From Acidobacteriota bacterium (lineage in GTDB: Bacteria > Acidobacteriota > Thermoanaerobaculia > UBA5066): a stretch of 63,376 nt of DNA. Position 1 is the first letter of the stretch. Each line of letters opens with the position of its first letter. Location: positions 1-63,376 of the forward strand of contig JBDTML010000163.1 in assembly GCA_039934255.1 (NCBI GenBank), written 5' to 3'. The position numbers and the translations under genes are program-made. Of this stretch, positions 5,656 through 63,376 are shown piece by piece. The notes under the pieces were generated by a model. That model worked only from the letters and a program-made list of their open reading frames with translations. It had not been told where the DNA came from and did no database searches.

Positions 5656-5677
5656 GATTCTAGGCCCGGAAAAGAAA

Positions 5678-5699
5678 AGAGCCCCCGTGAGGGGGCTCT
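5678..5699 (-). terminator. Intrinsic terminator downstream of pilin gene 1
   Basis: On the minus strand the sequence reads AGAGCCCCC-UCAC-GGGGGCUCU followed by UUUCUUUUCC. This is a 9-bp GC stem, a 4-nt loop and a U-rich tail, 26 nt after the pilin stop. Confidence 0.8.
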
Positions 5700-5725
5700 C
5701 GGATCGGGTCGGAGCGGGAGGACGA

Positions 5726-42904: not shown

Positions 42905-42958
42905 CCTACCGCCGATATTTTCGACACGAACCCGCCCTGCGTGCGTAAGATTCGCGCG

Positions 42959-44914
42959 ATGTCCAGCAGCGCGGCCGCTTCCCGGAAAACCAAGACCCCG
43001 AAACCGTCCCGCGTCCGGGTCCCCGAAAAATTCGCGGACGCCGAGAAGCTCTACGGCATCGAGAACTGGGGCAAGGGTTTCTTCTCCGTCTCGGACGACG
43101 GAAACCTCCTCGTTCACCCCACCCGAGAGAGTCACCGCTTCGTGGACCTCAAGGGAGTCATCGACGACGTCGCCCTGCGCGGCATCTCGACGCCGGTCGT
43201 CGTGCGGTTTCCGCAGATCCTCGACGCCACCGTCAAGGAGCTCAACGAGGCCTTCCTGCGCGCGATCAAGGAGTACGAGTACGAGGGGGTCTTCCGGGGC
43301 GTGTTCCCGATCAAGGTGAACCAGAAGAAGGTCGTCGTGCGCGAAATCATCCAGTCGGGCCGCAAGTACGGCTACGGGCTGGAGGCCGGGAGCAAGCCCG
43401 AGCTCCTCGCGGCCCTCTCACAGGACCTCGGCCCGGACTGCCTCATCACGACGAACGGTTACAAGGACGAGGCGTTCATCAAGCTCGCGCTGAACGGGCT
43501 CCGGATGGGCAAGACGGTCGTTCTCATCCTCGAGAAGGTTTCCGAGCTCGAGCGGATTCTCGACGTCGCGAAGAAGCGCGGCGTGAGGCCCCTGATCGGC
43601 ATGCGCAGCAAGCTCTACGCGCGCGGCTCGGGCAAGTGGGCGAAGTCGGGCGGGGAGGCCGCGAAGTTCGGCCTTACGACGACCGAGATGCTCGACGCCG
43701 TCGAGATCCTCCGCCGGCGGAAGATGCTCGACTGCCTCGTCATGATCCACTTCCACATCGGCTCGCAGATCACGGACATCCGCAAGGTCAAGAACGCGAT
43801 CAAGGAAGCGGGCCGCGTCTACGCGAAGCTCTACCGCTCGGGCGTCGAGGTGCAGTTCCTGAACCTGGGCGGGGGGCTCGGCGTCGACTACGACGGCTCG
43901 AAGACGGCGTTCGACTCGTCGATGAACTACACGGTCCAGGAGTACGCGAACGACATCGTGTACACGATCAAGTCGATCTGCGACGAGGAGAAAGTGCCCG
44001 TCCCGACGCTCGTCACCGAGTCGGGCCGCGCGATCACGGCGTACCACTCGGTCCTCGTGACGAACGTCCTCGACGTGGCGGACCGCATCGAGCAGGGCCG
44101 CACCGTGAAGCTCGACGGCGACGAGAACCACGTCGTGCGCGAGCTCTACGACGTGTGGCAAGGGGTCACGGCGAAAACCATGCGCGAGAGCTACCACGAC
44201 GCGCTGCAATACAAGGAAGAGCTTTTCACGCTCTTCAACCTCGGCTACGTCTCGCTCGAAGACCGCAGCAAGGGCGAGATCCTCTACTGGAACATCTGCG
44301 AGCGCATCCGCCGGCACCTCCACACGCTCAAGGACATCCCCGAGGAGTTCGAGCAGCTCGAAGTGATGCTCGCCGACAAGTACGTCATGAACTTCTCCGT
44401 CTTCCAGTCGCTGCCCGACGTGTGGGCGATCGACCAGCTGTTCCCCATACTCCCGATCCACCGCCTGCGCGAGCGCCCCACCGAGCACGGCACGCTCGCG
44501 GACATCACGTGCGATTCGGACGGCAAGATCGAGAAGTTCATCGACCTCCGTGACATCAAGGAGGCGCTTCCTCTCCATCCGTTCCACAAGGGGACGCCGT
44601 ACTACATCGGCTTCTGCCTCGTCGGGGCGTACCAGGACGTCCTCGGCGACCTCCACAACCTCTTCGGCGAGGCGCACGAGGTGCTCGCGAGCGTGGACGA
44701 CGACGGCCGCACGCGCATCCAGGACGTCCTGCCCGGCGAGTCCTGCGAGCGGGTCCTCTCGTATATGAACTACGACCGCGACGAGATCCTCGACGGCATC
44801 TGGCGCCAGCTCCGCCGCGCCACCGAGCGCAAGAAGGTCAAGGAGCCCGAGGCGAAGGCCATCGCGAAGGATTTCGAGCAGGTCCTGTCGCAGTACACCT
44901 ACCTCGAGGACTAA
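42959..44914 (+). CDS. speA: Biosynthetic arginine decarboxylase
   Basis: The sequence reads ..YGIENWGKGFFSVSDDGNLLVHP...VVVRFPQIL...FPIKVNQ...GLEAGSKPEL...HFHIGSQI...LGGGLGVDYDGS... The ATG is at 42959. The upstream part of the tracked ORF is antisense shadow. Confidence 0.93.
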   Translation: MSSSAAASRKTKTPKPSRVRVPEKFADAEKLYGIENWGKGFFSVSDDGNLLVHPTRESHRFVDLKGVIDDVALRGISTPVVVRFPQILDATVKELNEAFLRAIKEYEYEGVFRGVFPIKVNQKKVVVREIIQSGRKYGYGLEAGSKPELLAALSQDLGPDCLITTNGYKDEAFIKLALNGLRMGKTVVLILEKVSELERILDVAKKRGVRPLIGMRSKLYARGSGKWAKSGGEAAKFGLTTTEMLDAVEILRRRKMLDCLVMIHFHIGSQITDIRKVKNAIKEAGRVYAKLYRSGVEVQFLNLGGGLGVDYDGSKTAFDSSMNYTVQEYANDIVYTIKSICDEEKVPVPTLVTESGRAITAYHSVLVTNVLDVADRIEQGRTVKLDGDENHVVRELYDVWQGVTAKTMRESYHDALQYKEELFTLFNLGYVSLEDRSKGEILYWNICERIRRHLHTLKDIPEEFEQLEVMLADKYVMNFSVFQSLPDVWAIDQLFPILPIHRLRERPTEHGTLADITCDSDGKIEKFIDLRDIKEALPLHPFHKGTPYYIGFCLVGAYQDVLGDLHNLFGEAHEVLASVDDDGRTRIQDVLPGESCERVLSYMNYDRDEILDGIWRQLRRATERKKVKEPEAKAIAKDFEQVLSQYTYLED

Positions 44915-51946: not shown

Positions 51947-52519
51947 TCAGCCCTTCTTCTTCGTGGGCGCCAGCTTCGCGAGAGGCTCGACCCACATCTC
52001 CTCCACGCGGCGCTGCTTGTCGGACATGCCCATCCGATAGCGCAGGCGCACCCGGCACTCCGGGACCGCCCAGGACGACACACCCGGGTCGGAGGCGACG
52101 GGCGTTCCCTTGCCGTAGCGCTCGAGGATTCCTTCGTAAAGTCCGGAAGGCGGGTCGAGGAGGTAGTGCAGTGCCACGACGGTCGCGTCGGCCGCGTCGG
52201 ACGAATAGGTCACGTCCACGATCCATGGCCGCTTCTCTGGGGTGTGCAGGACCTTCACGTCCCGAACGACCGTCTTCTTCGCCGGCTCGTGCAGGGCCAT
52301 CCGCTCGAAAGAAAACGCGCGGGTCTGCCCGATTTCGAGGCCTGCCATTCCGGGGCAGGGGGGCGGCGTCGGGTGGGCCACGGGGGTGCCCGTCGACGGG
52401 GCCGCCGAGCCCGTCTGGGGACCCGTCTGCTGCGTTTGGACCTGAATCTGCGCGTTCGCGGGAAGGGTGGCGAGACCCGCCAGAAAAAGGGCCGTGCAAA
52501 GGAAAAGGAAAGGTTTCAT
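51947..52519 (-). CDS. Secreted hypothetical protein
   Basis: The signal peptide is MKPFLFLCTALFLAGLATLPANA/QI. RBS CAGGAG. No recognisable domain. Confidence 0.6.
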   Translation of the reverse strand: MKPFLFLCTALFLAGLATLPANAQIQVQTQQTGPQTGSAAPSTGTPVAHPTPPPCPGMAGLEIGQTRAFSFERMALHEPAKKTVVRDVKVLHTPEKRPWIVDVTYSSDAADATVVALHYLLDPPSGLYEGILERYGKGTPVASDPGVSSWAVPECRVRLRYRMGMSDKQRRVEEMWVEPLAKLAPTKKKG

Positions 52520-52619: not shown

Positions 52620-54050
52620 TCAGGGCGCGGTCGCGAACTCGAGGAGAACCCGCCTCGTCCGCCCGATCCCATCGATGAAAAGTGGAAGCGAAATGCGTTC
52701 GTTCGGGTGATGGATCGTCGCCGCATCGTAGATGTTCACGGCGAAGGGGGACACGCCGTAAACGCGGAGGCCGCGGGCGCGAATGGCGGCCGCCGACGTG
52801 GCCTGCCCGCTCAGGATATAGGGCCCGACGGGTGCCTTCTCCGGGTCCAGACCGTAAACGTTCTCGATTGCGCGCCAGGCGTTCCCCTCGGTGGGGCTCG
52901 ATACGGAGTCACGGGTCTCGAAAAAGCGGCGGAGGCCGAAGCCCCGGCTCCGAACCCAGCTCTCGAGCTCGGCGCGCGCGGACGCGACCGGGCTTCCCGG
53001 CAGCAGCGTTCTGACGACGCGCATGGAAAAGCCGTCGGATTCCTTTTCGACCCTGCCCGTATAGATGCTGTCCTTGAGAAGTGAACGGTAGACTTCCGGA
53101 ACGTCCTTCCAGAGCTCCGCCTCCGGAACGAGCTTCTCGGCTCCATCCATCATGTAGCGGCCCCAGACATCCGATCGCGAGGGCGCGATGAACCGCAGGA
53201 ACTCCCTCACGGCGGGGACTACGCGGACGGGTTGCTGCTGATCCCGGGCCTTCAGGAATTCGCGGAAATCCTCGAGCGGCTTCGCGGCAGACGACAGGGC
53301 GGCCACGGAGAGAACCGCCTTCTCCATCGTCTCGATGCCGAAGCGCTCGACCTGCTGGGTCTTGACCTCGTTGACTCCTCCCTCGTTGAAGACGTCCGTC
53401 ACGCCCGCGAGGAGGTCCGGCCGGTTGTCGAAGAGCCAGCCCATGCCGAGGTCTTCGCGAAATGTCTCTTCTCCGGACTCGACGACGAAGACGATGTCGC
53501 GGAGCGGCACGAGGCCCGCGCGCGTGAGCGAAACCACGGCGAGGAGGTTTGCGATCGTCTGCCCCTTCATGTCGAGCGTCCCGCGCCCGTAGAGGCGATC
53601 GCGCTCGAGCCCGGCGCCTCGCGCGGCCGCGAACGGCGGACTGACCCACGCGCCGAGATCCCCCGCGGGCACCACGTCCGCATGGTTGAGAAGGGCGAGC
53701 GCGCCCTCCTGGCTTCGGCCCTTGATGCGTGCGACGAGGATCGGGCGCTCCGGATCGGCGCCGGTGATCGCCGACGGAATCCCATCGCACGCGAGAACCC
53801 GGGCGAGAAAGTCGATCGCGGGGCGGGTGATTCCGGGCGGATTCGTCGTGTCGATGCGCACGTATTCCACGAGGAGCTTCACGGCCTCGGTCTCCATGGC
53901 CGCGTCCGCCTCGACGTACACCTGGCGAATCGCGATGGGCGCCGCGAGCCGCGACACAATCGCCGGAACAGCCCAGAGAGCGAGCACGGCGAAAGCGGCA
54001 GCGCCCCCGTACAAGGCGAGGCGCCGCTTCGCGCGAGGCCCCAGCGTCAT
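52620..54050 (-). CDS. M20 family metallopeptidase/deacylase with an N-terminal TM anchor
   Basis: The sequence reads ..LLNHADVVPAGDLGAWVSPPFAA...LYGRGTLDMKGQ...FVVESGEE.. The ATG at 54050 overlaps the upstream stop as ATGA. Confidence 0.85.
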   Translation of the reverse strand: MTLGPRAKRRLALYGGAAAFAVLALWAVPAIVSRLAAPIAIRQVYVEADAAMETEAVKLLVEYVRIDTTNPPGITRPAIDFLARVLACDGIPSAITGADPERPILVARIKGRSQEGALALLNHADVVPAGDLGAWVSPPFAAARGAGLERDRLYGRGTLDMKGQTIANLLAVVSLTRAGLVPLRDIVFVVESGEETFREDLGMGWLFDNRPDLLAGVTDVFNEGGVNEVKTQQVERFGIETMEKAVLSVAALSSAAKPLEDFREFLKARDQQQPVRVVPAVREFLRFIAPSRSDVWGRYMMDGAEKLVPEAELWKDVPEVYRSLLKDSIYTGRVEKESDGFSMRVVRTLLPGSPVASARAELESWVRSRGFGLRRFFETRDSVSSPTEGNAWRAIENVYGLDPEKAPVGPYILSGQATSAAAIRARGLRVYGVSPFAVNIYDAATIHHPNERISLPLFIDGIGRTRRVLLEFATAP

Positions 54051-56170
54051 GTTTTTCCAAACGCGGAGGGGCGCAGCGAAACGAGCAGGCTGACGGCGAG
54101 CGCCAGCGCGGTGACCACGGAAATCATGAACCCGATCTTCACCCACCGCGTGTCCGGCCGCAAACGCAGGTGATGACGTCCTTCCGGAACCGCCAGGCCC
54201 GCGAACCCGAACGCGACGCGCGAGACGCGGGCAGGGCTGCCGTCGAGCGTGGCCTCTTCCGCGGCATCCCACAACCGGTACAGCATGAGAAAGCCCGGGC
54301 CCGGCCCCGCAACCTCGACGTCGAGAAAGAGCCCGGAAGGCCGATCGTCGACGGCCAGGATGCGGCCAGCCGCCGGAGCGGGAGAAACTCCCGGGACCGC
54401 TTCGTCGACGTACGCGGTGTCGACGCCGAAGCCGTCCTCGAGAAGTCGCCCGAAGACGGCGCGAGCGTCGGGGGAGGCCGCGAGCTTCGCCGCGAACCGG
54501 TAAGGCGGAACCGGGTCGCGAATCGGCTCGAGACGCGGCCGGTAGCGCCCGTCCTCTTCTCGCTCGCTCCGGACGATCGCCGAGACGCCCGTGCCACGCA
54601 CGATGCGGATGGCGAGCGCCGGCGTTTCCCGGACGGCGCGATTGAGGAGGCGCGTCCACTCGAACGTTTCCGCCGGAAGCGACAGGTCGTAGTCAACCTC
54701 GAATTGATAGGCGACGCCGAAGAGCGACCCGTAGGCCGGGAGCAGCGATTCCCGACCGACGCGGCCCGAGGCCCTGAGGTCGCGCGAGTCGTACACCGGA
54801 ACGGGGGCGTAGAGGTCCCGGAAGAAGAGGCGCGGCGGTGGGGCGGCGCCTGGGGGCGCGGGAAATCCGGCCAGAAGCGTGGGAGCGCGCGTGATGACCG
54901 ACGCATCCTCGAGAGGCATGAGGCGCCGCGCGATTCCCTCCCGATCGATGAAGATCGCGAAAGCGAGGAGTGGCAAGGCGATGCGAAGAGCCCGGGGCGA
55001 CAGGGCGCCCGCGAGGCTCGACAGCCCCAGCGCGGCGAGCCAGGCGAGCCCGAATCCGAGGAGAACCATGTACTTCTCCGGGTACCGGATCCAGCCGAGA
55101 GGCGGCAGCAGCCGCGCGGCGAGCCCGAAGACCGGCGTGGCGCCGCCGAGGGCGAGGAGGAAGCCTGTGGCCGCGAGGAGCACAGCCGCGACCCGTCCCG
55201 GCCCTTTCCGGACGAGTCCGACGACGACGAGAATCCACGCGACTCGCCCCGGCGTCACGGAGGGAAGGTAGGGATAGTCCGGAATTCCGGGAGCCGACGC
55301 GACGACCGCCCAGTCCGCGACCAGCCCGTCCGTGAAGAGGTCTTTGAGGCGCGACAGCACGAATGGGTTCAACGCGGCGGCAGCCGGGCCCATGCCTCCT
55401 CCCGGCGACCGGATACTGCGTGCGGCTGTGGCCGCCCCCGGCAGGATCGCGATCGCGCCGAGCCCGGCGGCGAGAAACGCGCTCGCCACGAGGAGAGCCA
55501 GCGGACGCGCCTCCTGTCGCCACGTCCCGCCTTCACCGCGTGCCGCGAAGAGAACCGCGACGGCGACACACAACGCGAAAATCACGAATTCGGGCGCCGT
55601 CGCGAGAAGAATAAGGGCCGCCGCGATTCCCACCTTCGCCACCTTCGCCACCTCCGCTACCTCGCGCGTACGCGACGCTTTCACGAGGTCGTAGACGAAT
55701 GCGGCAAACCACGGAAGGATCGAGAGCGCGGACATCGTGGGCGGAAACGTGGCGACGGACACCGCCGCCGCGCCGAGCGCGAAGGCGAGTCCCGCGAGGG
55801 CCGCCGGCCCGCGCAAAAGGCCGAGGCGCCTTCCGAAAGCGGCGAATCCGGCGACGGCCACTCCGAGATGCAGAACGATCCACGCCTTCATCGCGGCCCC
55901 GAGGGGCAGCACGAGGAAGAGGATGTTCGCGGGGTCGAACGGCGCCGCCGAGGGAGCGCCGAGAAGCGGCGCCCCTCCCCATCGAAAGCGATCCACCCAG
56001 GGCAGTTCTCCACGAAGGACCGCTTCGACGAGATGAGCCTTCAGCGGAAAGAAATAAAACAGGAGGTCCCGCCCCACCGGAACGCCGGATCCGAAAAGCC
56101 CGCGAAACGGCAGGAGCACGAGAAGGATCGCCCCGACGAGAGGAAGCGATTCGCGCAGACGTGCCTTCAC
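54047..56170 (-). CDS. YfhO-like polytopic membrane protein (putative GT-C glycosyltransferase), copy 2
   Basis: The sequence reads VPVGRDLLFYFFPLKAHLVEAVLRGELPWVDRFRWGGAPLLGAPSAAPFDPANILFLVLP. It has many TMs and a C-terminal module ..VSRVAFGFAGLAVPEGRHHLRLRP.. GTG at 56170 overlaps the upstream stop as GTGA. Confidence 0.72.
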   Translation of the reverse strand: MKARLRESLPLVGAILLVLLPFRGLFGSGVPVGRDLLFYFFPLKAHLVEAVLRGELPWVDRFRWGGAPLLGAPSAAPFDPANILFLVLPLGAAMKAWIVLHLGVAVAGFAAFGRRLGLLRGPAALAGLAFALGAAAVSVATFPPTMSALSILPWFAAFVYDLVKASRTREVAEVAKVAKVGIAAALILLATAPEFVIFALCVAVAVLFAARGEGGTWRQEARPLALLVASAFLAAGLGAIAILPGAATAARSIRSPGGGMGPAAAALNPFVLSRLKDLFTDGLVADWAVVASAPGIPDYPYLPSVTPGRVAWILVVVGLVRKGPGRVAAVLLAATGFLLALGGATPVFGLAARLLPPLGWIRYPEKYMVLLGFGLAWLAALGLSSLAGALSPRALRIALPLLAFAIFIDREGIARRLMPLEDASVITRAPTLLAGFPAPPGAAPPPRLFFRDLYAPVPVYDSRDLRASGRVGRESLLPAYGSLFGVAYQFEVDYDLSLPAETFEWTRLLNRAVRETPALAIRIVRGTGVSAIVRSEREEDGRYRPRLEPIRDPVPPYRFAAKLAASPDARAVFGRLLEDGFGVDTAYVDEAVPGVSPAPAAGRILAVDDRPSGLFLDVEVAGPGPGFLMLYRLWDAAEEATLDGSPARVSRVAFGFAGLAVPEGRHHLRLRPDTRWVKIGFMISVVTALALAVSLLVSLRPSAFGKT

Positions 56171-58398
56171 GGGCGCGCCCCTCGCCGGGCGACAAGAGCG
56201 ACGGCCAGAAGCGACGCGACGGAGAGCGCCCCCCCGGCGAAGAAGGCGGGGTTCTCGTATGCGAGCGCGATCTCGTGGTCTCCGCCCGGAACGTCCACGG
56301 CCATCATGTATCCGTCCGAGGGGCGGATCGCGAGATCCGCCCCGTCCACCCGAGCATGCCAGTTCGGGTCGAACGTCCGCGCGACGAAAAGCACCGCCAC
56401 AGGAAGGCCCACCCGTACCCGGAGGCGGGCCCGGCCCGGCCGGCTCTCCTCCACCGAAACCGTCCCGCCGCCCGCCGGGAGAAAGCAGAACTCCGCGCGC
56501 GCGCCTTCGACGCGCAGGATCCGGTCCTCTCCGAAGCGGCCGATCTCGACGACTCCGGGCGGATCGGGCGGCACCGCCGCCGTCCTCACGAGAGTCACGC
56601 CGAGAGTGCGCAGGCGCGCGACCTTTTCCGCTCCCCATTGGAGTCCCGCGAGTGCGCGGGCGAAGCGCGCCGAGGGAGCTGCCGTCATGCGGTCCACGTC
56701 GTTCTCCCCGGCGTATCGGATCCCGAAGGCGACACCCGCCGCGGGGAGCAGCGGGTCGAATCCGCCGGCCTCGCGCGTCCGGCGCGCGACCGTCGACGCG
56801 GCGCCGGCGCCGTCGTCGTAGAAGCGCCCGGCCCCGATCCGCGCGCGCACGAGCGCGACCTCGGGTGTCTCGCGGCGGTAAAGATCCGGCGGCCCCGCGG
56901 GGCACGTCCCCGCCACGCGCCGCGCCGCGTCGGCCAGAAACAACACGGCAATGATGCTGGCGAGAAGCATCGTGTCACGGCGCTTTTCTTTGAAGGTGAA
57001 GAGGGAGAACGCGACCGCGCACAGGAGAAGGGTCGCGGTGGCCATGAGAAGCGGCGCTCGAAGGACTCCCGCGACGGCGGCACCAGAGGTATCGCCCACA
57101 CCAAGCCCCATCGCCCATATTCCCTTTCTCAGCAAATCTTCCGCGCCGACCGCCAAAGCGAGGAGCGCGCCGCAAACGAGAGCGAGCCCGGTCGCTCCCC
57201 TCCGAAGCAAATCGACGGCTTTTCTTCTCGTCTCCCCCACCTCATCGGAAAACACAGCATCGACGCCGACCGCCGCCGCCCCCGCGAGCGCGAACGTCAC
57301 GAGGAGCCACCATTTCTCCGGATAGCGAAGGACTGAAACGGCCGCCGCGAGGAACGAGGCCCCGGGCAGGAACCGCCCGAACGAGAGCACGGCTCCGCCG
57401 AGCGCGAGAAGAAGCGCGGCTCGTCCCCGCCTGTCGCGCCACGCGGCCGCGGCGAAAAGGAGCGGAACAAGCCCGAGCGCGAGATCCTCGAAGTAGGGGC
57501 TGCCCGCGTCGAACGTGCCCCTGCCCCAATCGAGGGACGTGTCGCCTTGGGGATCGCCCGTGAGCCGCGGTTCGAGAAGCGTGAGGACGCGCGACGGCCT
57601 CACGGACCGGAAGAGGGCTCCGTGTTCGGGCCGCATCTCGATACCCCGCGCGGAGCGGGAAAGCTCGAGGACCGCCGGACAGATCTGGACCGCCGCAAGA
57701 CCCGCGCCGAGACCCAGCGCGAGAAGCGCGCCGGCAATGGCGCGCCCGCGCGCCTGCCCCGCGCCGAACGCCGCAACCGCGAAGAATGCCGCCGCGCCCA
57801 TCAGCGTCACGGCCGGTTCGCCGCCGAGCGCCGCGAGGCCGACGGCGAGCGCCGCGACGGCGCGGGCGCGACCGCGGGCAGCCGCGTCTCCCGAGGCGAG
57901 GCGGGGCGCCTCGGCGAGCGCGAAGGCAAGCGGCAGGACGGCCGCGCACGTCGTCGCGTAGACCGGAAGCGACTGTGCGACGCCCGAAAAGAGGAGAACG
58001 AGCGTCCCCGCGGCACAGGCCTGAGGCGAGAGGCCGATGCGCCGCAGGGAAAAAAAGAAGACCGCGAGGACGAGAAAGATGGCGACGAAAGCGAGAGCCG
58101 TCGGCGAGAGAACGAGGAGGAGCGGCGAGAGCGGCCAGAACGCGGCGGCATTCGGGTCCGCGGCGAAGGGTCTTCCCGCGGACATCCACTCGTTCCAGAC
58201 GGGCATCTCGCCCGCCCCGAAGAGCCGCCCGAGGGCGAGCCTCCAGGGGACGAAGAAGAAGCCCGCGTCGCGCCGATACAGCGTGCCGCCGACCAGGAAA
58301 GGAGCAAACCGGATCGCGGCGGCAGTGAGAACGGCGGCGAGCGCCCATGCAGTGAAACGGGCGCGGAGGCGAGGGGACTCCTCCGGTGCGCGCGTCAC
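56167..58398 (-). CDS. YfhO-like polytopic membrane protein (putative GT-C glycosyltransferase), copy 3
   Basis: The sequence reads GGTLYRRDAGFFFVPWRLALGRLFGAGEMPVWNEWMSAGRPFAADPNAAAFWPLSPLLLVL. It has many TMs and a C-terminal module ..FDPNWHARVDGADLAIRPSDGYMMAVDVPGGDHEIALAYENP. GTG at 58398 lies 5 nt after the upstream stop. Confidence 0.72.
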   Translation of the reverse strand: MTRAPEESPRLRARFTAWALAAVLTAAAIRFAPFLVGGTLYRRDAGFFFVPWRLALGRLFGAGEMPVWNEWMSAGRPFAADPNAAAFWPLSPLLLVLSPTALAFVAIFLVLAVFFFSLRRIGLSPQACAAGTLVLLFSGVAQSLPVYATTCAAVLPLAFALAEAPRLASGDAAARGRARAVAALAVGLAALGGEPAVTLMGAAAFFAVAAFGAGQARGRAIAGALLALGLGAGLAAVQICPAVLELSRSARGIEMRPEHGALFRSVRPSRVLTLLEPRLTGDPQGDTSLDWGRGTFDAGSPYFEDLALGLVPLLFAAAAWRDRRGRAALLLALGGAVLSFGRFLPGASFLAAAVSVLRYPEKWWLLVTFALAGAAAVGVDAVFSDEVGETRRKAVDLLRRGATGLALVCGALLALAVGAEDLLRKGIWAMGLGVGDTSGAAVAGVLRAPLLMATATLLLCAVAFSLFTFKEKRRDTMLLASIIAVLFLADAARRVAGTCPAGPPDLYRRETPEVALVRARIGAGRFYDDGAGAASTVARRTREAGGFDPLLPAAGVAFGIRYAGENDVDRMTAAPSARFARALAGLQWGAEKVARLRTLGVTLVRTAAVPPDPPGVVEIGRFGEDRILRVEGARAEFCFLPAGGGTVSVEESRPGRARLRVRVGLPVAVLFVARTFDPNWHARVDGADLAIRPSDGYMMAVDVPGGDHEIALAYENPAFFAGGALSVASLLAVALVARRGARP
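56981..57145. repeat. AT-rich repeat pair (arms 56981-57010 and 57115-57145) inside YfhO-like copy 3
   Basis: 56982-57004 (gcttttctttgaaggtgaagagg) is 21/23 identical to 29426-29448. 57123-57138 (cctttctcagcaaatc) matches the reverse complement of 41811-41826. A weaker third piece lies at about 57200-57240 (ccgaagcaaatcgacggcttttcttctcgtctccc). Confidence 0.6.
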
Positions 58399-58403
58399 GT
58401 GCC

Positions 58404-59807
58404 TCAGGGCTTCCGCGCGAGAACCAGAAGCGACATCCCGAACGACGGCTCCGTCTTCTCCTCCGCCCGGAGGAGGGGCATCAGCCACTTGAAGGCGCCG
58501 AGCTGCCTCTTCGGCAGGACGCGGCGCTTCAAAAGGCGGGAATTGACCCACCAGCCGAGGACGCCGGGCCGATTCAGGTATCGGACGGATTCCACGGCGA
58601 AGCCCGCGCGCGCGACGAGCGTCGCGAGGGCGCCCTTTTCGTAGCGACGGTAGTGGCGGAGATTCTCGTCGAGCGTGCCGTAAAGCGCCGGCAGGGCGGG
58701 CACGAGAAGCGCGAGGTGCCCTCCGGGTTGTAGAACGCGCAGGAAGTCGGCGAGCGTTCCGGCGTCGTCCTCGATGTGCTCGAGCACGTTCAGGCAGACG
58801 ATCGAGTCGATGCGCTCGCGGCCGAGGTCGGCGCGATCTCCCTCCGTGAGCGGAAACCGGAACGAGGCGACGCGCACGTTGCCCTGCTTCTCGAACCGGT
58901 TGAGGAGCTCGCGCACGTAGTGCGGTTCGATGTCCGACGCGACGACGCGCTCGCGGTCCGCGAAAAACCGCGTCTGGTTGCCCACGCCCGATCCGACCTC
59001 GAGAACGCGCGACCCGAGCCACGCCTCGAACCGCTCGTGAATCCAGCGGTTGTAGACCGACAGCTCGCTCATACGGCGGAGCGTGATCGCGCCCACGTCG
59101 CTTTCGGGCGCTTCCCACCGGAAGTACTTGAGGATCGTCCAGACCGCCTGAAACGCGTCCTTGAGGCCGATCTTCTTGCCTTCCTCGTAGGTCCGCCCGT
59201 TGTACGAGATGGGGACTTCGTAGATCCGGACGCGCATGCGCGCCACCTTGCACGTGATCTCGGGCTCGACGCCGAACCGCTGCGACCTGAGATCCAGCCG
59301 GTCCACGACTCCGCGGGTCATGACCTTGTAGCAGGTCTCCATGTCCGACAGGTTCAGGTCCGTGAACACGTTCGACATGAGCGTGAGGAGGCGGTTGCCG
59401 ACCGTGTGCCAGAAGTAGAGGACACGGTGCCCGTGCGGACTGCCCAGAAAGCGGGATCCGTACACGACCTCGGCCTTGCCCGCGAGGATGGGGCCGAGAA
59501 GAACCGGATATTCCTCGGGGTCGTACTCGAGATCGGCGTCCTGGATCACGACGAGGTCGCCCGTGGAGGCGCGCATGCCGGCCCACACGGCGGCGCCCTT
59601 CCCCATGTTGCGCGTCTGGAGGATCACGCGCACGCCGTTCTTGCCGTCGAGCTCACGGAGAATGTCGCGGGTTCCGTCCGTCGAGCCGTCGTCGACGATC
59701 ACGATCTCGCGTTCGAGATCCCCGAGGTCCACCGCCAGAACCTGCGCGAGAATCTCGCGGATCGTCTGGCGCTCGTTGTACGCCGGCATCACGATCGACA
59801 ACTTCAT
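58404..59807 (-). CDS. Fusion of a GT2 polyprenyl-phosphate-sugar-synthase-like glycosyltransferase and a class I SAM-dependent methyltransferase
   Basis: The GT2 part reads LSIVMPAYNE...VIVDDGSTDGT...GKGAAV...VIQDADLEYDP (DxD)...SDMETCYK. The methyltransferase part reads VLEVGSGVGNQT...CLNVLEHIED...LQPGGHLALLVP. ATGA overlap with the upstream gene. Confidence 0.88.
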   Translation of the reverse strand: MKLSIVMPAYNERQTIREILAQVLAVDLGDLEREIVIVDDGSTDGTRDILRELDGKNGVRVILQTRNMGKGAAVWAGMRASTGDLVVIQDADLEYDPEEYPVLLGPILAGKAEVVYGSRFLGSPHGHRVLYFWHTVGNRLLTLMSNVFTDLNLSDMETCYKVMTRGVVDRLDLRSQRFGVEPEITCKVARMRVRIYEVPISYNGRTYEEGKKIGLKDAFQAVWTILKYFRWEAPESDVGAITLRRMSELSVYNRWIHERFEAWLGSRVLEVGSGVGNQTRFFADRERVVASDIEPHYVRELLNRFEKQGNVRVASFRFPLTEGDRADLGRERIDSIVCLNVLEHIEDDAGTLADFLRVLQPGGHLALLVPALPALYGTLDENLRHYRRYEKGALATLVARAGFAVESVRYLNRPGVLGWWVNSRLLKRRVLPKRQLGAFKWLMPLLRAEEKTEPSFGMSLLVLARKP

Positions 59808-61534
59808 GGGCTCTGCTCTTTCACGTCGTAAAGAACGATGGAGTATCCCACGCGATCGACCGGAGTTCCCCGCGCCGAGACCGTCTGGCGGAGCCGGCCG
59901 AAGCCCGCGGCGCCCACGGGATCACCGTGAAAGGCGGTCGCCTCCGGACCGCAGCACATCAGGAACGAGGAGACCGCCCAGAGGCCCGGACGGACCGGCG
60001 TCACGGCGGGAGCGAACACGGTCGCCCGCGGCGCGTAATACGGCACGTCGCCGCCGCCGAAGTACGCGATCGTCGCGCGCGCCTCGTCCCCCCGCTCCCG
60101 GAGCCGGCGCGCGAGACGCCCGAGGTCCTGCCCCCAGTCGAGATTCGAGTCGTTGAGCCAGGCCGCGCCGTTCGCCGGGCCTCCGGCCGCCTCGTTGAAG
60201 AACGAAAGCTCGTGCGGATGGATTCGAAGGGTCTCGCCGAGCTGCACCACGGCCCCGGCGAGGAGCACCGCCGCCGCCGAGCGCGCGGGAAGGGCCCGGA
60301 AGAGGACGAGGACCGCCGCCGCGAGGAGGAGCGGATACACCGGCAGCATGTGCCGGATGCCGATGTTGTAGGACGTCGCCATGCCGGTGACGAACAAATA
60401 GGCCGGCGGGAGAACGAGCGTGAGGAGCACGAGGTCGGGCAGCACGCGCCGCGCCACCCCCACGACACAGGCGGCGATCAGGATCGCGAGAAAACCGAGT
60501 GAACTCTTCACCGCGAACGCGACGAAGAAGTACTCCCAGAATCCGTCCACGGAGAGCCTGCCGTGCAGGTAATTCACGCCGCCTCCCGTCCGGTTCTGGA
60601 CGGCGATCCCGGCGAGCCCGGCGGCGTAGTGACCCGCCTCCTTCGACAGACGTGAGACCGCGAGAATCCGGTCGATCGTCTCCTGCGGGGCCTGCCGCGA
60701 GACGAGGAAGATCCGCACGGCTTTTCCGGCCTCGGACCCGCTCATGTGGCGCATCGCGACCGCGTAGCTTCCGAGCAGCACGGCCGCCGACGCCACGCCC
60801 GCGAGGAGAAGGCCGCCGAGCGGGAGGAGATCGGGGGGACGGCCCGCGCGCGCGGCGTCGCGGCGCTCCCGGAGGAGGCCCACGAGGGCGAGAATCGCGA
60901 CCATCGGAACGAGAAGCACGCACGAGAACTTCGCGGCGAGGCTCGCGCCCAGCGCCGCGCCCGTGGCGGTCCAGAGCCAGAGAGACCGGCGCTCGAGCGC
61001 GCGCGTGGCGAGGACGAGCGTGGCGAAGAAACCGAGGGCGGCCGCGAGATCGGTGTGGACGACGCCCGCGTGCGCCAGAAGGTTCGGCTCGAAGGCCAGG
61101 ACCGCGGCCGTGAGGACTCCGGCGAGATCGCCCGCCCACGCCCTTACGGCCGAGGCGGCCACGACGACGAGAAGAAAGAAGAGCACGGCGACCGGCGCGC
61201 GCGCGACGCCGAAGAGCTTCTCCGGTGGGAGCGGCGAGTGAAAGCTGAAGGGCCGGGGTTGCTCGGCCGATCCCATGGAAAAAGGGACGTCCATCTTCGG
61301 CGCGCGCCCGCCCGCCGCACGCAGCGCGAAGCCGGACAGGAGCTTCACGAGCGGCGGATGCTCGAGGTTCGCGTAGTACGTCCCCGAGATCGCGTACTCC
61401 GCCCCCGCCAGCGTGTGAAAGGGCTCGTCCATCGTCGGGCTGTCGAGGCGCGTGTGGTCGAAGACCAGTGCGACGCCGCACGTGGCCAGGACGAGCACGG
61501 CAACACGGAACCTCACGCGGGGAGCGTCGGACAC
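59804..61534 (-). CDS. ArnT/PMT-like (GT39/GT83-type) polyprenyl-phosphate-dependent glycosyltransferase
   Basis: The sequence reads SPTMDEPFHTLAGAEYAISGTYYANLEHPPLVKLL (DE..H and HPPL motifs). It has about 10-12 TMs and a C-terminal soluble region. Confidence 0.8.
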   Translation of the reverse strand: MSDAPRVRFRVAVLVLATCGVALVFDHTRLDSPTMDEPFHTLAGAEYAISGTYYANLEHPPLVKLLSGFALRAAGGRAPKMDVPFSMGSAEQPRPFSFHSPLPPEKLFGVARAPVAVLFFLLVVVAASAVRAWAGDLAGVLTAAVLAFEPNLLAHAGVVHTDLAAALGFFATLVLATRALERRSLWLWTATGAALGASLAAKFSCVLLVPMVAILALVGLLRERRDAARAGRPPDLLPLGGLLLAGVASAAVLLGSYAVAMRHMSGSEAGKAVRIFLVSRQAPQETIDRILAVSRLSKEAGHYAAGLAGIAVQNRTGGGVNYLHGRLSVDGFWEYFFVAFAVKSSLGFLAILIAACVVGVARRVLPDLVLLTLVLPPAYLFVTGMATSYNIGIRHMLPVYPLLLAAAVLVLFRALPARSAAAVLLAGAVVQLGETLRIHPHELSFFNEAAGGPANGAAWLNDSNLDWGQDLGRLARRLRERGDEARATIAYFGGGDVPYYAPRATVFAPAVTPVRPGLWAVSSFLMCCGPEATAFHGDPVGAAGFGRLRQTVSARGTPVDRVGYSIVLYDVKEQSP

Positions 61535-61584: not shown

Positions 61585-63376
61585 GTGAGCGCGCGCTCCT
61601 CGGGCCTCTCGCGAGACGGGCAGTTCGTCCTCCTGATCTTCCTCGCGGCCCTGGCCTTGCGCCTCGCGTCCTTCCCCGACGCCACGGCCAGAGGATGGCG
61701 GCTCCTGTCGCCGGACTGCTACGGCCACCTCCGGCGCACGGTCTCGGTCGCCCGCAATTTCCCGCGCGTTCCCGTCCGCGATGCGTACCTCAACCATCCC
61801 GACGGCGGCGTCTTCATCTGGCCGCCCGCGTTCGACCTCCTCGCGGGCGGCATTTCGCGCACCCTTTACGGGCGCGCGGCGACGACGGAGCAGGTCCTGA
61901 GGGTCGCGGCCCTCCTCCCCGCATTCCTCGGCGCGCTCCACGTCCTCCCTCTCTTTGCGGTTGCCCGCCGGGTCCTGGGCCGCCGTCGCGCCCGGATCGC
62001 CGTCGTTGCCTACGCCGCGATTCCGGCCGCCGTCCTCTGGGGAGGTTTCGGGCACTTCGACCATCACGTGGCCGAGGCGCTCAACCTGCTCCTCGTTCTC
62101 GCGGCGGGCGCGTGGACCGTTTCCGCGCAGGGGGAAGCTCGATTCGCGCGCGCCGCCGTTTTCGGCGCCGCGATCGCCCTCGCCGTCCTCACGTGGCAGG
62201 GGGCCGTTTTCGTGGCAGGCCTCGCATTCCTCTGGGCGGCGTTCGCGGTCGGCGAAGCCGCGGCTGTGACGGCGCTCGTCGCGACGACCCTCGTCGCCCT
62301 CGCCACGTTGTTCGTCCTTCCTGCCGCGCCCGTCCCCTTTTCGTTCGTCTCCTTCGGCTGGTTCCAGACGCTGCTCCTCGCCGGTGCAAGCGTGCCGATC
62401 CTCGCGCTCGCCGCGTGGCGGGCCGAGAAACCGCGACGCCGGCTCATTTGGGGGGTGCTCGCGGCCGCGGGCCTGGCCGTCGCCCTGCCGAACGCCCACC
62501 GTGTCCTCGCCGCCGCTTTCCACGGAGGCGCTTACGTCTTCAAGGAGGGTGCGGGGGCGAGCGGGCCCGATTTCGCGGACGGAGGTTTTCTCTCTTATCC
62601 GCAGGAGTTCCTGCGCCTCGTCGCCGAGTGCCAGCCTCTCGTCAGCAGCTGGAAATCGCTCGAACGTGCCCTCCGCGAGCTTTCGCCGGGTTTCCTCCTC
62701 GTGCCCCTCGCGGCCGTTCTCTGGGTGACGATCGCGCTCCGTCAGCCGCGCCTGCCACGCTCGCTCGGCCGGATCCTCCTCGCGCTCTTCGCCGCCGCGG
62801 TGTTCGCGATGGCCCTCTTTCAGCAGCGCAACGTGTACTACCTCGCGATCTTCAGCGCCCTCGCGCTCGCCGAGGCTTGCGCGCGCGTGGCCCCCCGCCC
62901 GCGCGGCTTTCCGAGGACGGCTTTCGTGTACCTGCTTGCCGCCGGTCTCGTGATCGTGCCGGGCTGGCCCTATCTTCAGAGAGCCCGCGCCTTCGCAAGC
63001 GGACCCGGTTATGACGTTCTCGAGCTCTTCACGAGGCTGCGCGCCCTCGACCCGCCTCCCGTGGATCCGGCGGCCGTCCCGCAACAGGCTCCGGGAACGA
63101 TTCCCGGCGTGATGCCGCCGTGGTCCGCGGGTCACTTCGTCACCGCGCTCGCGGAGCGGCCGGCCGCGGCGGACCCGTTCGTCTACGGATGGCGCCGGCA
63201 ATGCCGGCTGTTCACGGCGACCGACGATGCCGAGGCGTTCGCGATTTTGAAGGCCGCGAAGTGCCGGTATCTCGTCACGACGGAGCTCACGTCGCTCCTG
63301 GCCGCCTACGCGGCCGCCGCGGGCCGCGCGCCTGCGCCCACGAGCGCGATGTTCGCGCGGCGCGTGCACGAGTCCG
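61585..63376 (+). CDS. STT3/AglB-like oligosaccharyltransferase homologue, 3' end outside the window (ORF not listed in the track because it has no stop here)
   Basis: I translated frame 1 by hand from GTG 61585 and found no stop through 63376 (597 codons). The recognisable blocks are LLSPDCYGHLRRT (first DxD-type motif), HFDHHVAEALN, LRLVAECQPL (SVSE/TIXE-type motif) and MPPWSAGHFVTALAERPAAADPF (at the position of WWDYG). There are many TMs. Confidence 0.7.
   Translation, partial: MSARSSGLSRDGQFVLLIFLAALALRLASFPDATARGWRLLSPDCYGHLRRTVSVARNFPRVPVRDAYLNHPDGGVFIWPPAFDLLAGGISRTLYGRAATTEQVLRVAALLPAFLGALHVLPLFAVARRVLGRRRARIAVVAYAAIPAAVLWGGFGHFDHHVAEALNLLLVLAAGAWTVSAQGEARFARAAVFGAAIALAVLTWQGAVFVAGLAFLWAAFAVGEAAAVTALVATTLVALATLFVLPAAPVPFSFVSFGWFQTLLLAGASVPILALAAWRAEKPRRRLIWGVLAAAGLAVALPNAHRVLAAAFHGGAYVFKEGAGASGPDFADGGFLSYPQEFLRLVAECQPLVSSWKSLERALRELSPGFLLVPLAAVLWVTIALRQPRLPRSLGRILLALFAAAVFAMALFQQRNVYYLAIFSALALAEACARVAPRPRGFPRTAFVYLLAAGLVIVPGWPYLQRARAFASGPGYDVLELFTRLRALDPPPVDPAAVPQQAPGTIPGVMPPWSAGHFVTALAERPAAADPFVYGWRRQCRLFTATDDAEAFAILKAAKCRYLVTTELTSLLAAYAAAAGRAPAPTSAMFARRVHES

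What the first reader, a model, noticed from the sequence alone, without database searches (positions are those of the whole stretch)
61585..63376. Bacterial STT3/AglB-like oligosaccharyltransferase homologue with WSAGH in place of the WWDYG motif
This ORF is not in the supplied track because it runs off the window. Hand translation from GTG 61585 gives 597 uninterrupted codons of a polytopic membrane protein. Its ordered blocks match the STT3 family:
- SPDCYGHLRR (the archaeal-type DPDxYYHxR region)
- HFDHHVAE
- VAECQPL (the SVSE/TIXE motif)
- MPPWSAGHFV...ADPF at the position of WWDYG, followed by the usual ..A..IL....RYLV tail

In characterised OSTs the WD of WWDYG contacts the +2 Ser/Thr of the N-x-S/T sequon. 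Replacement by W-S-A suggests a different acceptor specificity or a non-canonical substrate. STT3 homologues are uncommon in bacteria outside the PglB lineages.
Basis: partly seen in the sequence, partly recalled or inferred. Interest (0 to 1): 0.72.

Follow-up and report, generated by a model that had tools for sequence, protein, structure and literature searches.

The report
Acidobacterial STT3-like glycosyltransferase lacking WWDYG
This is a real bacterial relative of the enzyme that attaches sugars to asparagine in proteins. It keeps the sugar-donor and catalytic residues but has lost the pocket that reads the usual N-X-S/T signal, and it sits in a conserved cluster of envelope-glycosylation genes, so it probably glycosylates an unknown target.

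Summary
**Observation:** confirmed. Window 61585-63376(+) is a genuine coding frame of 597 codons (GC3 0.86), cut by the window end about 41 codons before its stop.

**Identity:**
- It is an STT3/AglB homologue: Pfam STT3 and AglB_core both score above threshold.
- Family profile against A. fulgidus AglB-L gives E 1e-28.
- The AF2 model of an 88%-identical full-length relative has TM 0.65-0.70 to AglB-L, against 0.40 to ArnT.

**Conserved and replaced residues:**
- Metal-site, EL5 and phosphate-site residues are invariant in the family: D44, D159/H161, E348, R415.
- The three AglB peptide-site residues are replaced: D552 by S/A, Q571 by a variable residue, K618 by A/P/G. WWDYG becomes P-W-[S/A]-x-G.

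**Distribution and context:**
- The family is short (about 640 aa, AglB-S-like) and confined to Acidobacteriota (Thermoanaerobaculia and Holophagales).
- It always lies in a ~20 kb cluster with a PMT_2-like GT-C, three YfhO-like GT-Cs, three polyprenyl-P-sugar-type GT2s and Arn-like genes.
- No LLO-assembly genes were found within 10 kb either side.

**Most likely function:** an active, metal-dependent periplasmic GT-C that uses a polyprenyl-phosphate sugar on a non-sequon acceptor. The acceptor is unresolved.

- NCBI already names the protein "STT3 domain-containing".
- Bacterial STT3-like proteins with degenerate motifs are common in metagenomes, not rare.

**Verdict:** new variant of a known kind, uncharacterised.

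The parts
61585..63376 (+). STT3/AglB-like GT-C glycosyltransferase gene, 5' 597 of about 638 codons (3' end beyond the window)
   Evidence: Open frame. Codon-position GC 0.74/0.55/0.86. Pfam STT3 and AglB_core-like above cut-off. AglB-L E 1e-11 for the sequence and 1.4e-28 for the family profile. The AF2 model of an 88%-identical relative has TM 0.65-0.70 to AglB-L.
61708..61737 (+). SPDCYGHLRR: first acidic motif in external loop 1. D44 (61714-61716) aligns with AfAglB D47, a metal ligand and catalytic Asp.
   Evidence: Alignments. D invariant in 53 family members and in 113/113 distant representatives. Role of D47 from PMC8342417.
62053..62076 (+). HFDHHVAE: second DXD-type motif. D159 and H161 align with AfAglB D161 and H163, both metal ligands.
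   Evidence: H157, D159, H161 and E164 invariant. D kept in 112/113 distant representatives.
62620..62640 (+). VAECQPL: TIXE/SVSE-equivalent motif of the flexible loop EL5. E348 aligns with AfAglB E360.
   Evidence: E348 invariant. Kept in 102/113 distant representatives. Residues 322-334 just upstream have pLDDT below 50, as expected for a mobile EL5.
62821..62841 (+). QQRNVYY: R415 aligns with AfAglB R426, the Arg next to the phosphate of the lipid-linked donor.
   Evidence: Q413, R415, Y418 and Y419 invariant. R kept in 106/113 distant representatives. Role of R426 from PMC8342417.
63118..63135 (+). PWSAGH at the position of WWDYGH. Only the second Trp, Gly and His are kept. The Asp that hydrogen-bonds the +2 Ser/Thr is Ser here and Ser or Ala across the family.
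   Evidence: P512, W513, G516 and H517 invariant; position 514 is S or A and 515 is A, M or L.
63169..63180 (+). ADPF, equivalent to ANPF of AglB-L. The next residue, the equivalent of peptide-site Q571, is variable in the family.
   Evidence: D530 and P531 invariant.
63295..63309 (+). LLAAY on the helix that carries the DK/MI motif in OSTs. The position aligned to AfAglB K618 is A574 here and P, A or G in the family.
   Evidence: Profile alignment. Family alignment. Role of K618 from PMC3703281 and PMC8342417.
59804..61534 (-). Divergently transcribed PMT/PMT_2-type GT-C membrane glycosyltransferase (ArnT/PMT superfamily)
   Evidence: Pfam PMT 28 bits and PMT_2 26.8 bits, both above cut-off. 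Conserved next to the STT3-like gene in nearly all loci.
58404..59807 (-). GT2 (AglJ/PpgS/ArnC-like polyprenyl-phosphate sugar synthase type) fused to a SAM methyltransferase
   Evidence: Pfam Glycos_transf_2 E 3.6e-34 plus methyltransferase domains. NCBIfam best hit AglJ at 122 bits, below its cut-off. 70-96% identical across loci.
56167..58398 (-). YfhO-like GT-C candidate (about 743 aa), no Pfam-level annotation
   Evidence: tblastn mapping. Faint YfhO and PgfM1/2 hits in the orthologue. BLASTP E 8e-11 to the window's bona fide YfhO protein.
54047..56170 (-). YfhO-like GT-C candidate (about 707 aa), paralogue of the previous gene
   Evidence: Faint YfhO hit E 0.002 in the orthologue. BLASTP E 6e-8 to the window's YfhO protein.
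52620..54050 (-). M20-family peptidase or deacylase, last gene of the minus-strand operon (4-nt overlaps between genes in the relative L001)
   Evidence: Pfam Peptidase_M20 E 4e-17. Position conserved in both acidobacterial classes.

Best explanation
**What it is.** The ORF encodes a short STT3-fold GT-C glycosyltransferase of an acidobacterium (Thermoanaerobaculia-type MAG). It has about 638 aa, 13 transmembrane helices and a minimal AglB-S-like periplasmic domain.

**How it most likely works.**
- Its donor half-site is intact. D44, D159 and H161 bind a divalent metal. E348 sits on the mobile EL5 loop. R415 holds the phosphate of a polyprenyl-phosphate-linked sugar.
- It is therefore most likely an active enzyme that takes a sugar from a lipid-phosphate carrier on the periplasmic face of the inner membrane.
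- Its acceptor half-site is rebuilt. The Trp-Trp-Asp and Lys/Ile pocket that reads the +2 Ser/Thr of N-X-S/T is gone. It cannot select acceptors the way known OSTs do.
- It works within a conserved ~20 kb envelope-glycosylation cluster: one PMT_2-like GT-C, three YfhO-like GT-Cs, three polyprenyl-P-sugar-type GT2 synthases and Arn-like amino-pentose genes.
- The cluster lacks oligosaccharide-assembly genes. The donor is therefore probably a polyprenyl-monophosphate monosaccharide, the donor chemistry of its closest relatives, the euryarchaeal AglBs. That makes it the GT-C arm of a 'three-component'-type periplasmic glycosylation system.

**Shown and inferred.**
- Shown: homology, fold, residue conservation and synteny.
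- Inferred: catalytic activity (about 0.8), loss of sequon reading (about 0.8), monosaccharide donor from a cluster GT2 (about 0.5).
- Acceptor unresolved: roughly 45% a protein or peptide without the canonical sequon, and roughly 40% an envelope glycolipid or polysaccharide such as LPS.
For: **Homology and fold.**
- Pfam STT3 and AglB_core-like above threshold.
- TIGR04154 archaeal STT3 at 180 bits.
- AglB-L E 1e-11 for the sequence and 1.4e-28 for the profile.
- AF2 model: pLDDT 88, pTM 0.89.
- Foldseek: AglB-L TM 0.65-0.70, eukaryotic STT3 0.57-0.67, PglB 0.53, DPY19 0.61-0.63, ArnT 0.40. The C-terminal domain matches AglB-S2 with TMt 0.71-0.76.

**Donor site.**
- D44, D159, H161, E348 and R415 are invariant in 53 sequences at 49-89% identity. 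They are kept in 102-113 of 113 distant representatives.
- Their roles in AfAglB come from PMC8342417.

**Acceptor site.**
- D552 is replaced by S/A, Q571 by a variable residue and K618 by A/P/G. The first Trp is replaced by Pro. The roles of these residues come from PMC3703281 and PMC8342417.

**Context.**
- The same gene order occurs in about 45 loci of Thermoanaerobaculia and Holophagales, down to 48-55% identity of the STT3-like protein.
- It also occurs in a profile-only relative, P0140.
- The two small GT2s best match AglJ, PpgS and dolichyl-P-hexose transferase.
- The 774-aa operon partner models as a GT-C fold, and 19/46 of its family members hit YfhO.
- No GT1/GT4, PglC/WecA or Wzx genes lie within 10 kb either side.
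- A far-tier relative repeats the STT3, GT2, PMT_2-like triad.
- Euryarchaeal AglBs use monophosphate-linked donors (PMC8342417).
Against: - There are no biochemical data for any member.
- H81 of AfAglB, near the phosphate, has no conserved equivalent.
- In Holophagales-type loci an opposite-strand ~520-aa gene separates the STT3-like gene from the GT2. The GT2 always overlaps the YfhO-like gene instead. The GT2 may therefore serve that enzyme and not the STT3-like one.
- Synteny within one phylum can partly reflect shared descent.
- Two far-tier relatives (P0166, P0193) have no glycosylation context.
- An oligosaccharide donor could be assembled elsewhere in the genome, which I could not inspect.
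- I had no access to model coordinates. Active-site geometry was judged from sequence alignment only, and the model is of an 88%-identical relative, not the truncated window protein.
Confidence: 0.6

Rival explanations
1. It is specifically a lipid A, LPS or other envelope-glycan transferase. On this view an STT3-fold enzyme has taken over an ArnT/YfhO-type job and adds one of the cluster's polyprenyl-P sugars (Ara4N-like, hexose or methylated hexose) to a non-protein acceptor.
For: - It is embedded between Arn-like genes (ArnC-like 374 bits, ArnD-like 185 bits, formyltransferase and UDP-4-keto-pentose synthase above cut-off) and PMT_2/YfhO-type GT-Cs.
- All peptide-site residues are lost.
- Three-component GT2 / flippase / GT-C systems typically decorate glycolipids and polysaccharides (PMC11127046 and PMC8035078, listed).
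Against: - Every characterised STT3-fold enzyme (STT3, AglB, PglB, DPY19) acts on peptides (established knowledge).
- The peptide-binding C-terminal domain and the EL5 Glu are kept under strong constraint.
- A PMT_2-type protein that could be the ArnT is already present.
Confidence: 0.3
2. It is a conventional N-oligosaccharyltransferase that still glycosylates Asn in N-X-S/T or a near variant. The +2 residue would be read by other residues, and the lipid-linked oligosaccharide would be assembled by genes elsewhere in the genome.
For: - The full set of catalytic and phosphate-site residues is present, with best homology to active AglBs.
- The second Trp, Gly and His of the motif are kept.
- AglJ-like GT2s and an Agl23-like GT-C are neighbours, as in archaeal agl clusters.
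Against: - The Asp is Ser or Ala interchangeably within the family, so that side chain is not functional.
- The first Trp is an invariant Pro, the DK-motif Lys is absent and Q571 is not conserved.
- No LLO-assembly genes lie within 10 kb either side in three divergent loci. A canonical WWDYG relative, by contrast, sits beside GT4 and GT2 genes.
Confidence: 0.12
3. It is a catalytically dead relic or a scaffold subunit for the neighbouring GT-C enzymes.
For: The hallmark WWDYG motif, which is essential for activity in OSTs (PMC12229607), is lost.
Against: - The metal, phosphate and EL5 residues are invariant over 49-89% identity, and almost universally kept in far relatives.
- That pattern is the opposite of what is expected for a pseudoenzyme.
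- The frame is intact and under codon-usage constraint.
Confidence: 0.04

Closest known systems
Euryarchaeal AglB, in particular Archaeoglobus fulgidus AglB-L (PDB 3WAJ, 5GMY, 7E9S) and the short paralogues AglB-S1/S2 (3VGP, 3VU0)
   Same: - Best sequence and fold match.
- Same 13-TM GT-C core.
- Same first Asp, D-x-H, EL5 Glu and phosphate Arg.
- A minimal C-terminal domain like AglB-S: overall length about 640 aa against about 590 aa.
- The AglBs use monophosphate-linked donors (PMC8342417).
   Different: - About 21% identity.
- TIGR04154 scores 180 bits against a cut-off of 450.
- WWDYG becomes PW[S/A]xG.
- The DK-motif Lys, Q571 and H81 are not conserved.
- The host is bacterial.
- The neighbourhood has no oligosaccharide-assembly genes.
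Bacterial PglB (Campylobacter, Desulfovibrio)
   Same: - Single-subunit STT3-family enzyme in a Gram-negative inner membrane.
- Same catalytic residues.
   Different: - A much weaker match: no sequence-level hit, TM 0.53.
- PglBs keep WWDxG and the MI motif and sit in pgl LLO-assembly clusters.
- This family is a separate lineage, closer to euryarchaeal AglB.
DPY19 C-mannosyltransferase (PDB 7ZLG/H/I)
   Same: - An STT3-like GT-C fold without WWDYG (TM 0.61-0.63).
- It uses a polyprenyl-monophosphate monosaccharide (Dol-P-Man) on a non-sequon peptide acceptor.
- It is a precedent for retargeting this fold.
   Different: - No detectable sequence similarity.
- It is eukaryotic.
- It is an analogy of mechanism, not family membership.
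Three-component periplasmic glycosylation systems (GT2 polyprenyl-P-sugar synthase + flippase + GT-C: ArnC/ArnT, GtrB/GtrA/Gtr*, CsbB/GtcA/YfhO)
   Same: - The gene neighbourhood consists of exactly such parts: three GT2 synthase-type genes, plus PMT_2-like and YfhO-like GT-Cs.
   Different: - The GT-C here has the STT3 fold, which I am not aware of being reported in such systems (own knowledge, not checked in the literature searches).
- No GtrA/ArnEF-type flippase was recognised in the locus.
- Coupling of a particular GT2 to the STT3-like enzyme is not shown.

Membership tests
STT3/AglB/PglB superfamily (Pfam PF02516 + PF22627; CAZy GT66 fold) | Profile match to the STT3 N-terminal membrane domain above the curated threshold | tested here: met
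   PF02516 scores 32.2 bits against a cut-off of 24.5, E 1.1e-7.
STT3/AglB/PglB superfamily (Pfam PF02516 + PF22627; CAZy GT66 fold) | AglB-type core C-terminal domain | tested here: met
   PF22627 scores 29.7 bits against a cut-off of 27. Foldseek TMt is 0.71-0.76 to the AglB-S2 C-terminal domain.
STT3/AglB/PglB superfamily (Pfam PF02516 + PF22627; CAZy GT66 fold) | Overall 13-TM GT-C fold closest to solved OST catalytic subunits | tested here: met
   AF2 pLDDT 88. The first 17 PDB hits are AglB-L (1-4), eukaryotic STT3 (5-16) and PglB (17); DPY19 enters at rank 18. ArnT has TM 0.40. The model is of an 88%-identical full-length relative.
STT3/AglB/PglB superfamily (Pfam PF02516 + PF22627; CAZy GT66 fold) | Catalytic and metal residues: first-loop Asp, D-x-D/H motif, EL5 TIXE/SVSE Glu | tested here: met
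   D44, D159/H161 and E348 align with D47, D161/H163 and E360 of AfAglB and are invariant.
STT3/AglB/PglB superfamily (Pfam PF02516 + PF22627; CAZy GT66 fold) | Conserved Arg contacting the donor phosphate | tested here: met
   R415 aligns with R426 and is invariant.
Functional N-oligosaccharyltransferases (STT3, AglB, PglB) | WWD(Y/x)G motif forming the +2 Ser/Thr pocket | tested here: not met
   The motif is PWSAG here and P-W-[S/A]-[A/M/L]-G in 53 family members.
Functional N-oligosaccharyltransferases (STT3, AglB, PglB) | DK or MI motif: Lys or Ile completing the Ser/Thr pocket | tested here: not met
   The position aligned to AfAglB K618 is A574 here and P, A or G in the family. This rests on sequence alignment only, and a structural superposition was not possible, so the result is moderately secure.
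Functional N-oligosaccharyltransferases (STT3, AglB, PglB) | Transfer of a lipid-linked oligosaccharide to Asn of N-X-S/T | not testable with these tools
   This needs biochemistry or glycoproteomics. Indirectly, no LLO-assembly genes lie within 10 kb either side in three divergent loci.
NCBIfam TIGR04154, archaeosortase A-associated oligosaccharyltransferase | Score above the curated subfamily cut-off | tested here: not met
   180.1 bits against a cut-off of 450. The query is truncated by only about 41 aa.
ArnT / PMT_2 (GT83/GT39) and YfhO GT-C families | Profile match, or best fold match, to these families | tested here: not met
   No PMT, PMT_2 or YfhO hit at E up to 10. ArnT has TM 0.40, E 2e-6, well behind the OSTs.

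The most novel reading that the evidence does not exclude
The acidobacterial clade, and a much larger mostly bacterial radiation of 'x-W-x-x-G-H' STT3-like proteins, are enzymes in which the OST fold and donor chemistry have been retargeted. They would transfer a single sugar from a polyprenyl-monophosphate carrier to an acceptor that is not an N-X-S/T sequon. The acceptor could be a different protein determinant or a non-protein envelope molecule. That would be an unrecognised class of bacterial periplasmic glycosylation, parallel to the way DPY19 diverged from STT3 in eukaryotes.
Probability: 0.4. Interest if true: 0.8.

Novelty: new variant of a known kind. Interest (0 to 1): 0.55.

Why it matters
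- The WWDYG pocket is the textbook determinant of the N-glycosylation sequon. A large, strongly conserved family that keeps the catalytic machinery but discards that pocket is a natural experiment on how the OST fold selects its acceptor.
- If the acceptor is a protein, these enzymes could offer sequon-independent glycosylation tools.
- If the acceptor is a glycolipid, they would extend the STT3 fold beyond protein modification.
- The family also marks a conserved, unstudied ~20 kb envelope-glycosylation cluster with five GT-C enzymes in Thermoanaerobaculia and Holophagales, which are abundant soil and sediment Acidobacteriota.
- It bears on the history of AglB transfer from Euryarchaeota to Bacteria.

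Tried and rejected
- **Spurious high-GC ORF:** rejected by codon-position GC and by homology.
rejected.
- **Member of the PglB lineage:** rejected. There is no sequence hit and the fold match is weaker than to AglB and STT3.
- **Pseudoenzyme:** judged unlikely from invariant catalytic residues.
- **Published characterisation:** seven full-text searches (WWDYG, STT3, Acidobacteria, STT3-like, GT66, bacterial phyla, three-component) found no paper on this clade.
- **Reading the acceptor from context in far relatives:** contexts were inconsistent. P0188 repeats the STT3, GT2, GT-C triad, while P0166 and P0193 have no glycosylation genes.
- **Small secreted protein at 51947-52519 as a possible target:** it has a signal peptide and a P/T/G-rich linker, but nothing links it functionally.
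- **Inspecting active-site geometry in the model:** not possible, because model coordinates are not exposed.
- **Profile-to-PDB search for the 774-aa partner:** found nothing at sequence level. Only fold search placed it among GT-C enzymes.
Full report
**1.

Translating window 61585-63376(+) gives 597 codons without a stop. In 70% GC DNA long spurious ORFs are common; 57 ORFs of at least 60 aa overlap the last 11 kb. I therefore checked codon-position GC. It is 0.74/0.55/0.86, and the phase changes exactly at the start, which is the signature of a real gene. An in-frame stop at about 61558 leaves GTG 61585 as the first start. Full-length relatives begin with the same MSARSSGLSRDG... N-terminus.

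**2. It is an STT3/AglB homologue, not another GT-C family**

- Pfam STT3 (32.2 bits, cut-off 24.5) and AglB_core-like (29.7 bits, cut-off 27) both pass. No PMT, PMT_2 or YfhO hit appears even at E up to 10.
- NCBIfam's archaeal STT3 subfamily TIGR04154 scores 180 bits, far below its 450-bit cut-off.
- The only solved-structure hits are A. fulgidus AglB-L (E 1.1e-11) and the C-terminal domains of AglB-S1/S2. With a 53-sequence family profile the AglB-L hit rises to E 1.4e-28 over profile positions 14-581.
- An AlphaFold2 model of P0002, an 88%-identical full-length relative, is confident: pLDDT 88.1, pTM 0.89. The only internal low-confidence stretch is 322-334, immediately before the VAE motif, where OSTs have the mobile EL5 loop.
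- Foldseek ranks AglB-L first (E 3e-20, TM 0.65-0.70). Eukaryotic STT3 follows (TM 0.57-0.67), then PglB (0.53) and the STT3-like C-mannosyltransferase DPY19 (0.61-0.63). ArnT is well behind (0.40).

**3. Donor side conserved, acceptor side rebuilt**

Full-length family members are 638-670 aa, so only about 41 residues are missing here. The family is short, like the minimal AglB-S paralogues.

Across 53 sequences at 49-89% identity the following are invariant: D44, H157/D159/H161/E164, E348, Q413/R415/Y418/Y419, P512/W513/G516/H517 and D530/P531.

The HMMER alignments place these on AfAglB residues whose roles are established (PMC8342417; PMC3703281):

| AfAglB residue | Role in AfAglB | Equivalent in this family | State |
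|---|---|---|---|
| D47 | metal ligand | D44 | invariant |
| D161 / H163 | metal ligands | D159 / H161 | invariant |
| E360 | TIXE Glu on EL5 | E348 | invariant |
| R426 | next to donor phosphate | R415 | invariant |
| H81 | near donor phosphate | no conserved equivalent | not conserved |
| W550 | first Trp of WWDYG | P512 | replaced, invariant Pro |
| D552 | peptide site | residue 514, Ser or Ala | replaced |
| Q571 | peptide site | residue 533 | variable |
| K618 | peptide site, Lys of the DK motif | residue 574, Ala here and P/A/G elsewhere | replaced |

That Ser and Ala alternate at the former Asp position indicates the side chain no longer has a role. The pattern is the opposite of a decaying pseudoenzyme. 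The chemistry that handles the lipid-phosphate donor is under strict constraint, while the device that reads the +2 Ser/Thr of the sequon has been dismantled.

**4. Distribution**

- The exact protein is already in NCBI as 'MAG: STT3 domain-containing protein, partial [Acidobacteriota bacterium]'. JGI calls relatives 'asparagine N-glycosylation enzyme membrane subunit Stt3'. The homology itself is therefore not new.
- A scan of one genome per GTDB species returned 59 loci. Nearly all are Thermoanaerobaculia or Holophagales MAGs. A Methanocorpusculum AglB appears at 29% identity. The scan patterns favour close relatives.
- A profile search of 1.84 billion cluster representatives found 2560 relatives at E up to 1e-3.
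- Among 113 near-full-length sequences in the top 150, the first Asp is kept in 113, the second in 112, the EL5 Glu in 102, the Arg in 106, the second Trp in 108 and the Gly in 113. Only 17 have WWD, 21 have xWD and 70 have no Asp.
- In a neighbour-joining tree the short PWS[A/L]G proteins cluster together, and the canonical WWDYG sequences form two coherent clades.
- Where names exist, the canonical representative is archaeal (ANME-2, Nanoarchaeia, Bathyarchaeota). Non-canonical ones are bacterial (Elusimicrobiota, Myxococcales, Nitrospinota, Acidobacteriota).
- This sample is small and ranked by similarity to the query.
- Earlier phylogenies placed bacterial STT3 homologues inside the euryarchaeal clade (PMC4973528). 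That agrees with the affinities seen here.

**5. Gene neighbourhood**

Within the window the gene is divergent from a five-gene minus-strand operon:
- PMT/PMT_2-type GT-C, 59804-61534
- GT2 fused to a methyltransferase, 58404-59807
- two paralogous unannotated membrane proteins, 56167-58398 and 54047-56170
- M20 peptidase, 52620-54050

The two unannotated proteins are YfhO-like. They give faint YfhO and PgfM hits. They also match a third window protein (3367-5976, minus strand) that passes the YfhO threshold, with BLASTP E 8e-11 and 6e-8.

Relatives show what lies beyond the window end:
- a 247-aa GT2
- a 774-aa protein
- then, on the opposite strand, an ArnD-like deformylase, a UDP-4-keto-pentose/UDP-xylose synthase (553 bits, cut-off 294), a formyltransferase (370 bits, cut-off 316) and an ArnC-like GT2

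Both small GT2s best match AglJ, PpgS and dolichyl-P-hexose transferase, which are polyprenyl-phosphate monosaccharide synthases. The 774-aa partner models confidently (pLDDT 83). Its significant fold matches (E ≤ 0.001) are all GT-C enzymes: AftD, ArnT and yeast OST. Emb and DPY19 follow at weaker E-values. In addition, 19 of 46 family members hit YfhO.

A tblastn census shows the same order in essentially every locus long enough to judge. It holds in both acidobacterial classes, down to 48-55% identity of the STT3-like protein. It also holds in the profile-only relative P0140. No GT1/GT4 elongating transferase, PglC/WecA initiating enzyme or Wzx flippase occurs within 10 kb either side. A canonical WWDYG relative, in contrast, sits beside a GT4 and a GT2. 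A far-tier relative (P0188, 'PWGFG') repeats an STT3, overlapping GT2, PMT_2-like GT-C triad. Two others have no glycosylation context.

**6. Interpretation**

The best-supported reading is an active, divalent-metal-dependent STT3-fold transferase. It would work on the periplasmic face as one of five GT-C enzymes in an envelope-glycosylation cluster. The cluster's donors are polyprenyl-phosphate monosaccharides, including an Ara4N-type sugar. A monophosphate donor is chemically natural, because the closest relatives, the euryarchaeal AglBs, use monophosphate-linked glycans (PMC8342417).

The weakest link is which GT2 feeds it. In Holophagales-type loci a conserved ~520-aa polytopic membrane protein on the opposite strand separates the STT3-like gene from the GT2. 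The GT2 always overlaps the YfhO-like gene.

The acceptor cannot be decided with these tools.
- Fold precedent points to a peptide: STT3, AglB, PglB and DPY19 all act on peptides. So does the strong constraint on the C-terminal domain and the EL5 Glu.
- The Arn-like, YfhO-like and three-component context points to a glycolipid or polysaccharide (PMC11127046 and PMC8035078, listed). GT-C enzymes of that kind also glycosylate proteins in streptococci (PMC12041528).
- I put protein at about 45%, non-protein at about 40% and other at about 15%.

**7. Novelty and limits**

Seven full-text searches found no study of this clade. The library lacks most subscription-journal papers, so absence is not proof.

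The fold, the family assignment and the automated annotation are known. The clade-wide loss of the whole Ser/Thr pocket with full retention of the donor site, and the conserved multi-GT-C cluster, appear undescribed. I rate it a new variant of a known kind, of moderate to good interest.

Limits:
- The structure model is of a close relative.
- Residue equivalences for Q571 and K618 rest on profile alignment.
- All carriers are MAGs.
- The rest of the source genome could not be inspected.

Noticed in passing
window 3367-5976 (-), next to 423-2651 (-): A third YfhO-family GT-C (PF09586 35.9 bits, above the 28.5 cut-off) lies 50 kb from the cluster. It is adjacent to a PAS/HisKA/HATPase sensor kinase. 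It is a paralogue of the two unannotated membrane proteins beside the STT3-like gene.
   Followed up: partly
window 54047-56170 (-) and 56167-58398 (-): Two tandem polytopic proteins of about 700-740 aa have no Pfam-level annotation and appear to be divergent YfhO-like GT-C glycosyltransferases. In the relative L001 they are translationally coupled (4-nt overlaps) to an M20 peptidase/deacylase gene, which is an unusual partner for glycosyltransferases.
   Followed up: partly
window 58404-59807 (-): A GT2 domain of the AglJ/PpgS/ArnC polyprenyl-phosphate-sugar-synthase type is fused to a class I SAM methyltransferase. It is 70-96% identical across two acidobacterial classes and more conserved than any of the GT-C genes.
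   Followed up: partly
window 51947-52519 (-): A small secreted protein (191 aa) has a clear signal peptide followed by a Pro/Thr/Gly-rich linker. It is conserved at the edge of the cluster in many loci. It is a conceivable glycosylation target, but nothing links it functionally.
   Followed up: no
L001 11927-18885, L003 13470-20344, L064 11570-17935 (beyond the window's 3' end): Downstream of the STT3-like gene, relatives carry a GT2, a YfhO-like GT-C and an Arn-like set. ArnA is split into a formyltransferase and a UDP-4-keto-pentose/UDP-xylose synthase, alongside ArnD-like and ArnC-like genes. No ArnB aminotransferase lies within 10 kb. An ArnT-like PMT_2 gene follows ArnC in L003 only.
   Followed up: partly
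L003 11874-13457 (-), L064 9940-11499 (-): Holophagales-type loci have an extra conserved polytopic membrane protein of about 520 aa on the opposite strand, between the STT3-like gene and the GT2. The two copies are 34% identical (E 2e-45). It has no Pfam hit and contains an 'NKAPG' stretch; its fold and family were not tested.
   Followed up: partly
L065 8001-12773 (far-tier relative P0188): A distant STT3-like protein with 'PWGFG' in place of WWDYG overlaps a 235-aa GT2. A weak PMT_2-like protein of 602 aa follows. This repeats the STT3, GT2, GT-C arrangement outside the acidobacterial family. The taxon was not identified.
   Followed up: partly
window 32586-35762 (-) and 42338-44914 (+): In two long ORFs the recognised domain covers only the C-terminal part. 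The carboxylesterase domain starts at residue 576 of 1058, and the arginine decarboxylase domain starts at residue 303 of 858. The N-terminal parts may be over-extended ORFs in high-GC DNA or unannotated domains.
   Followed up: no
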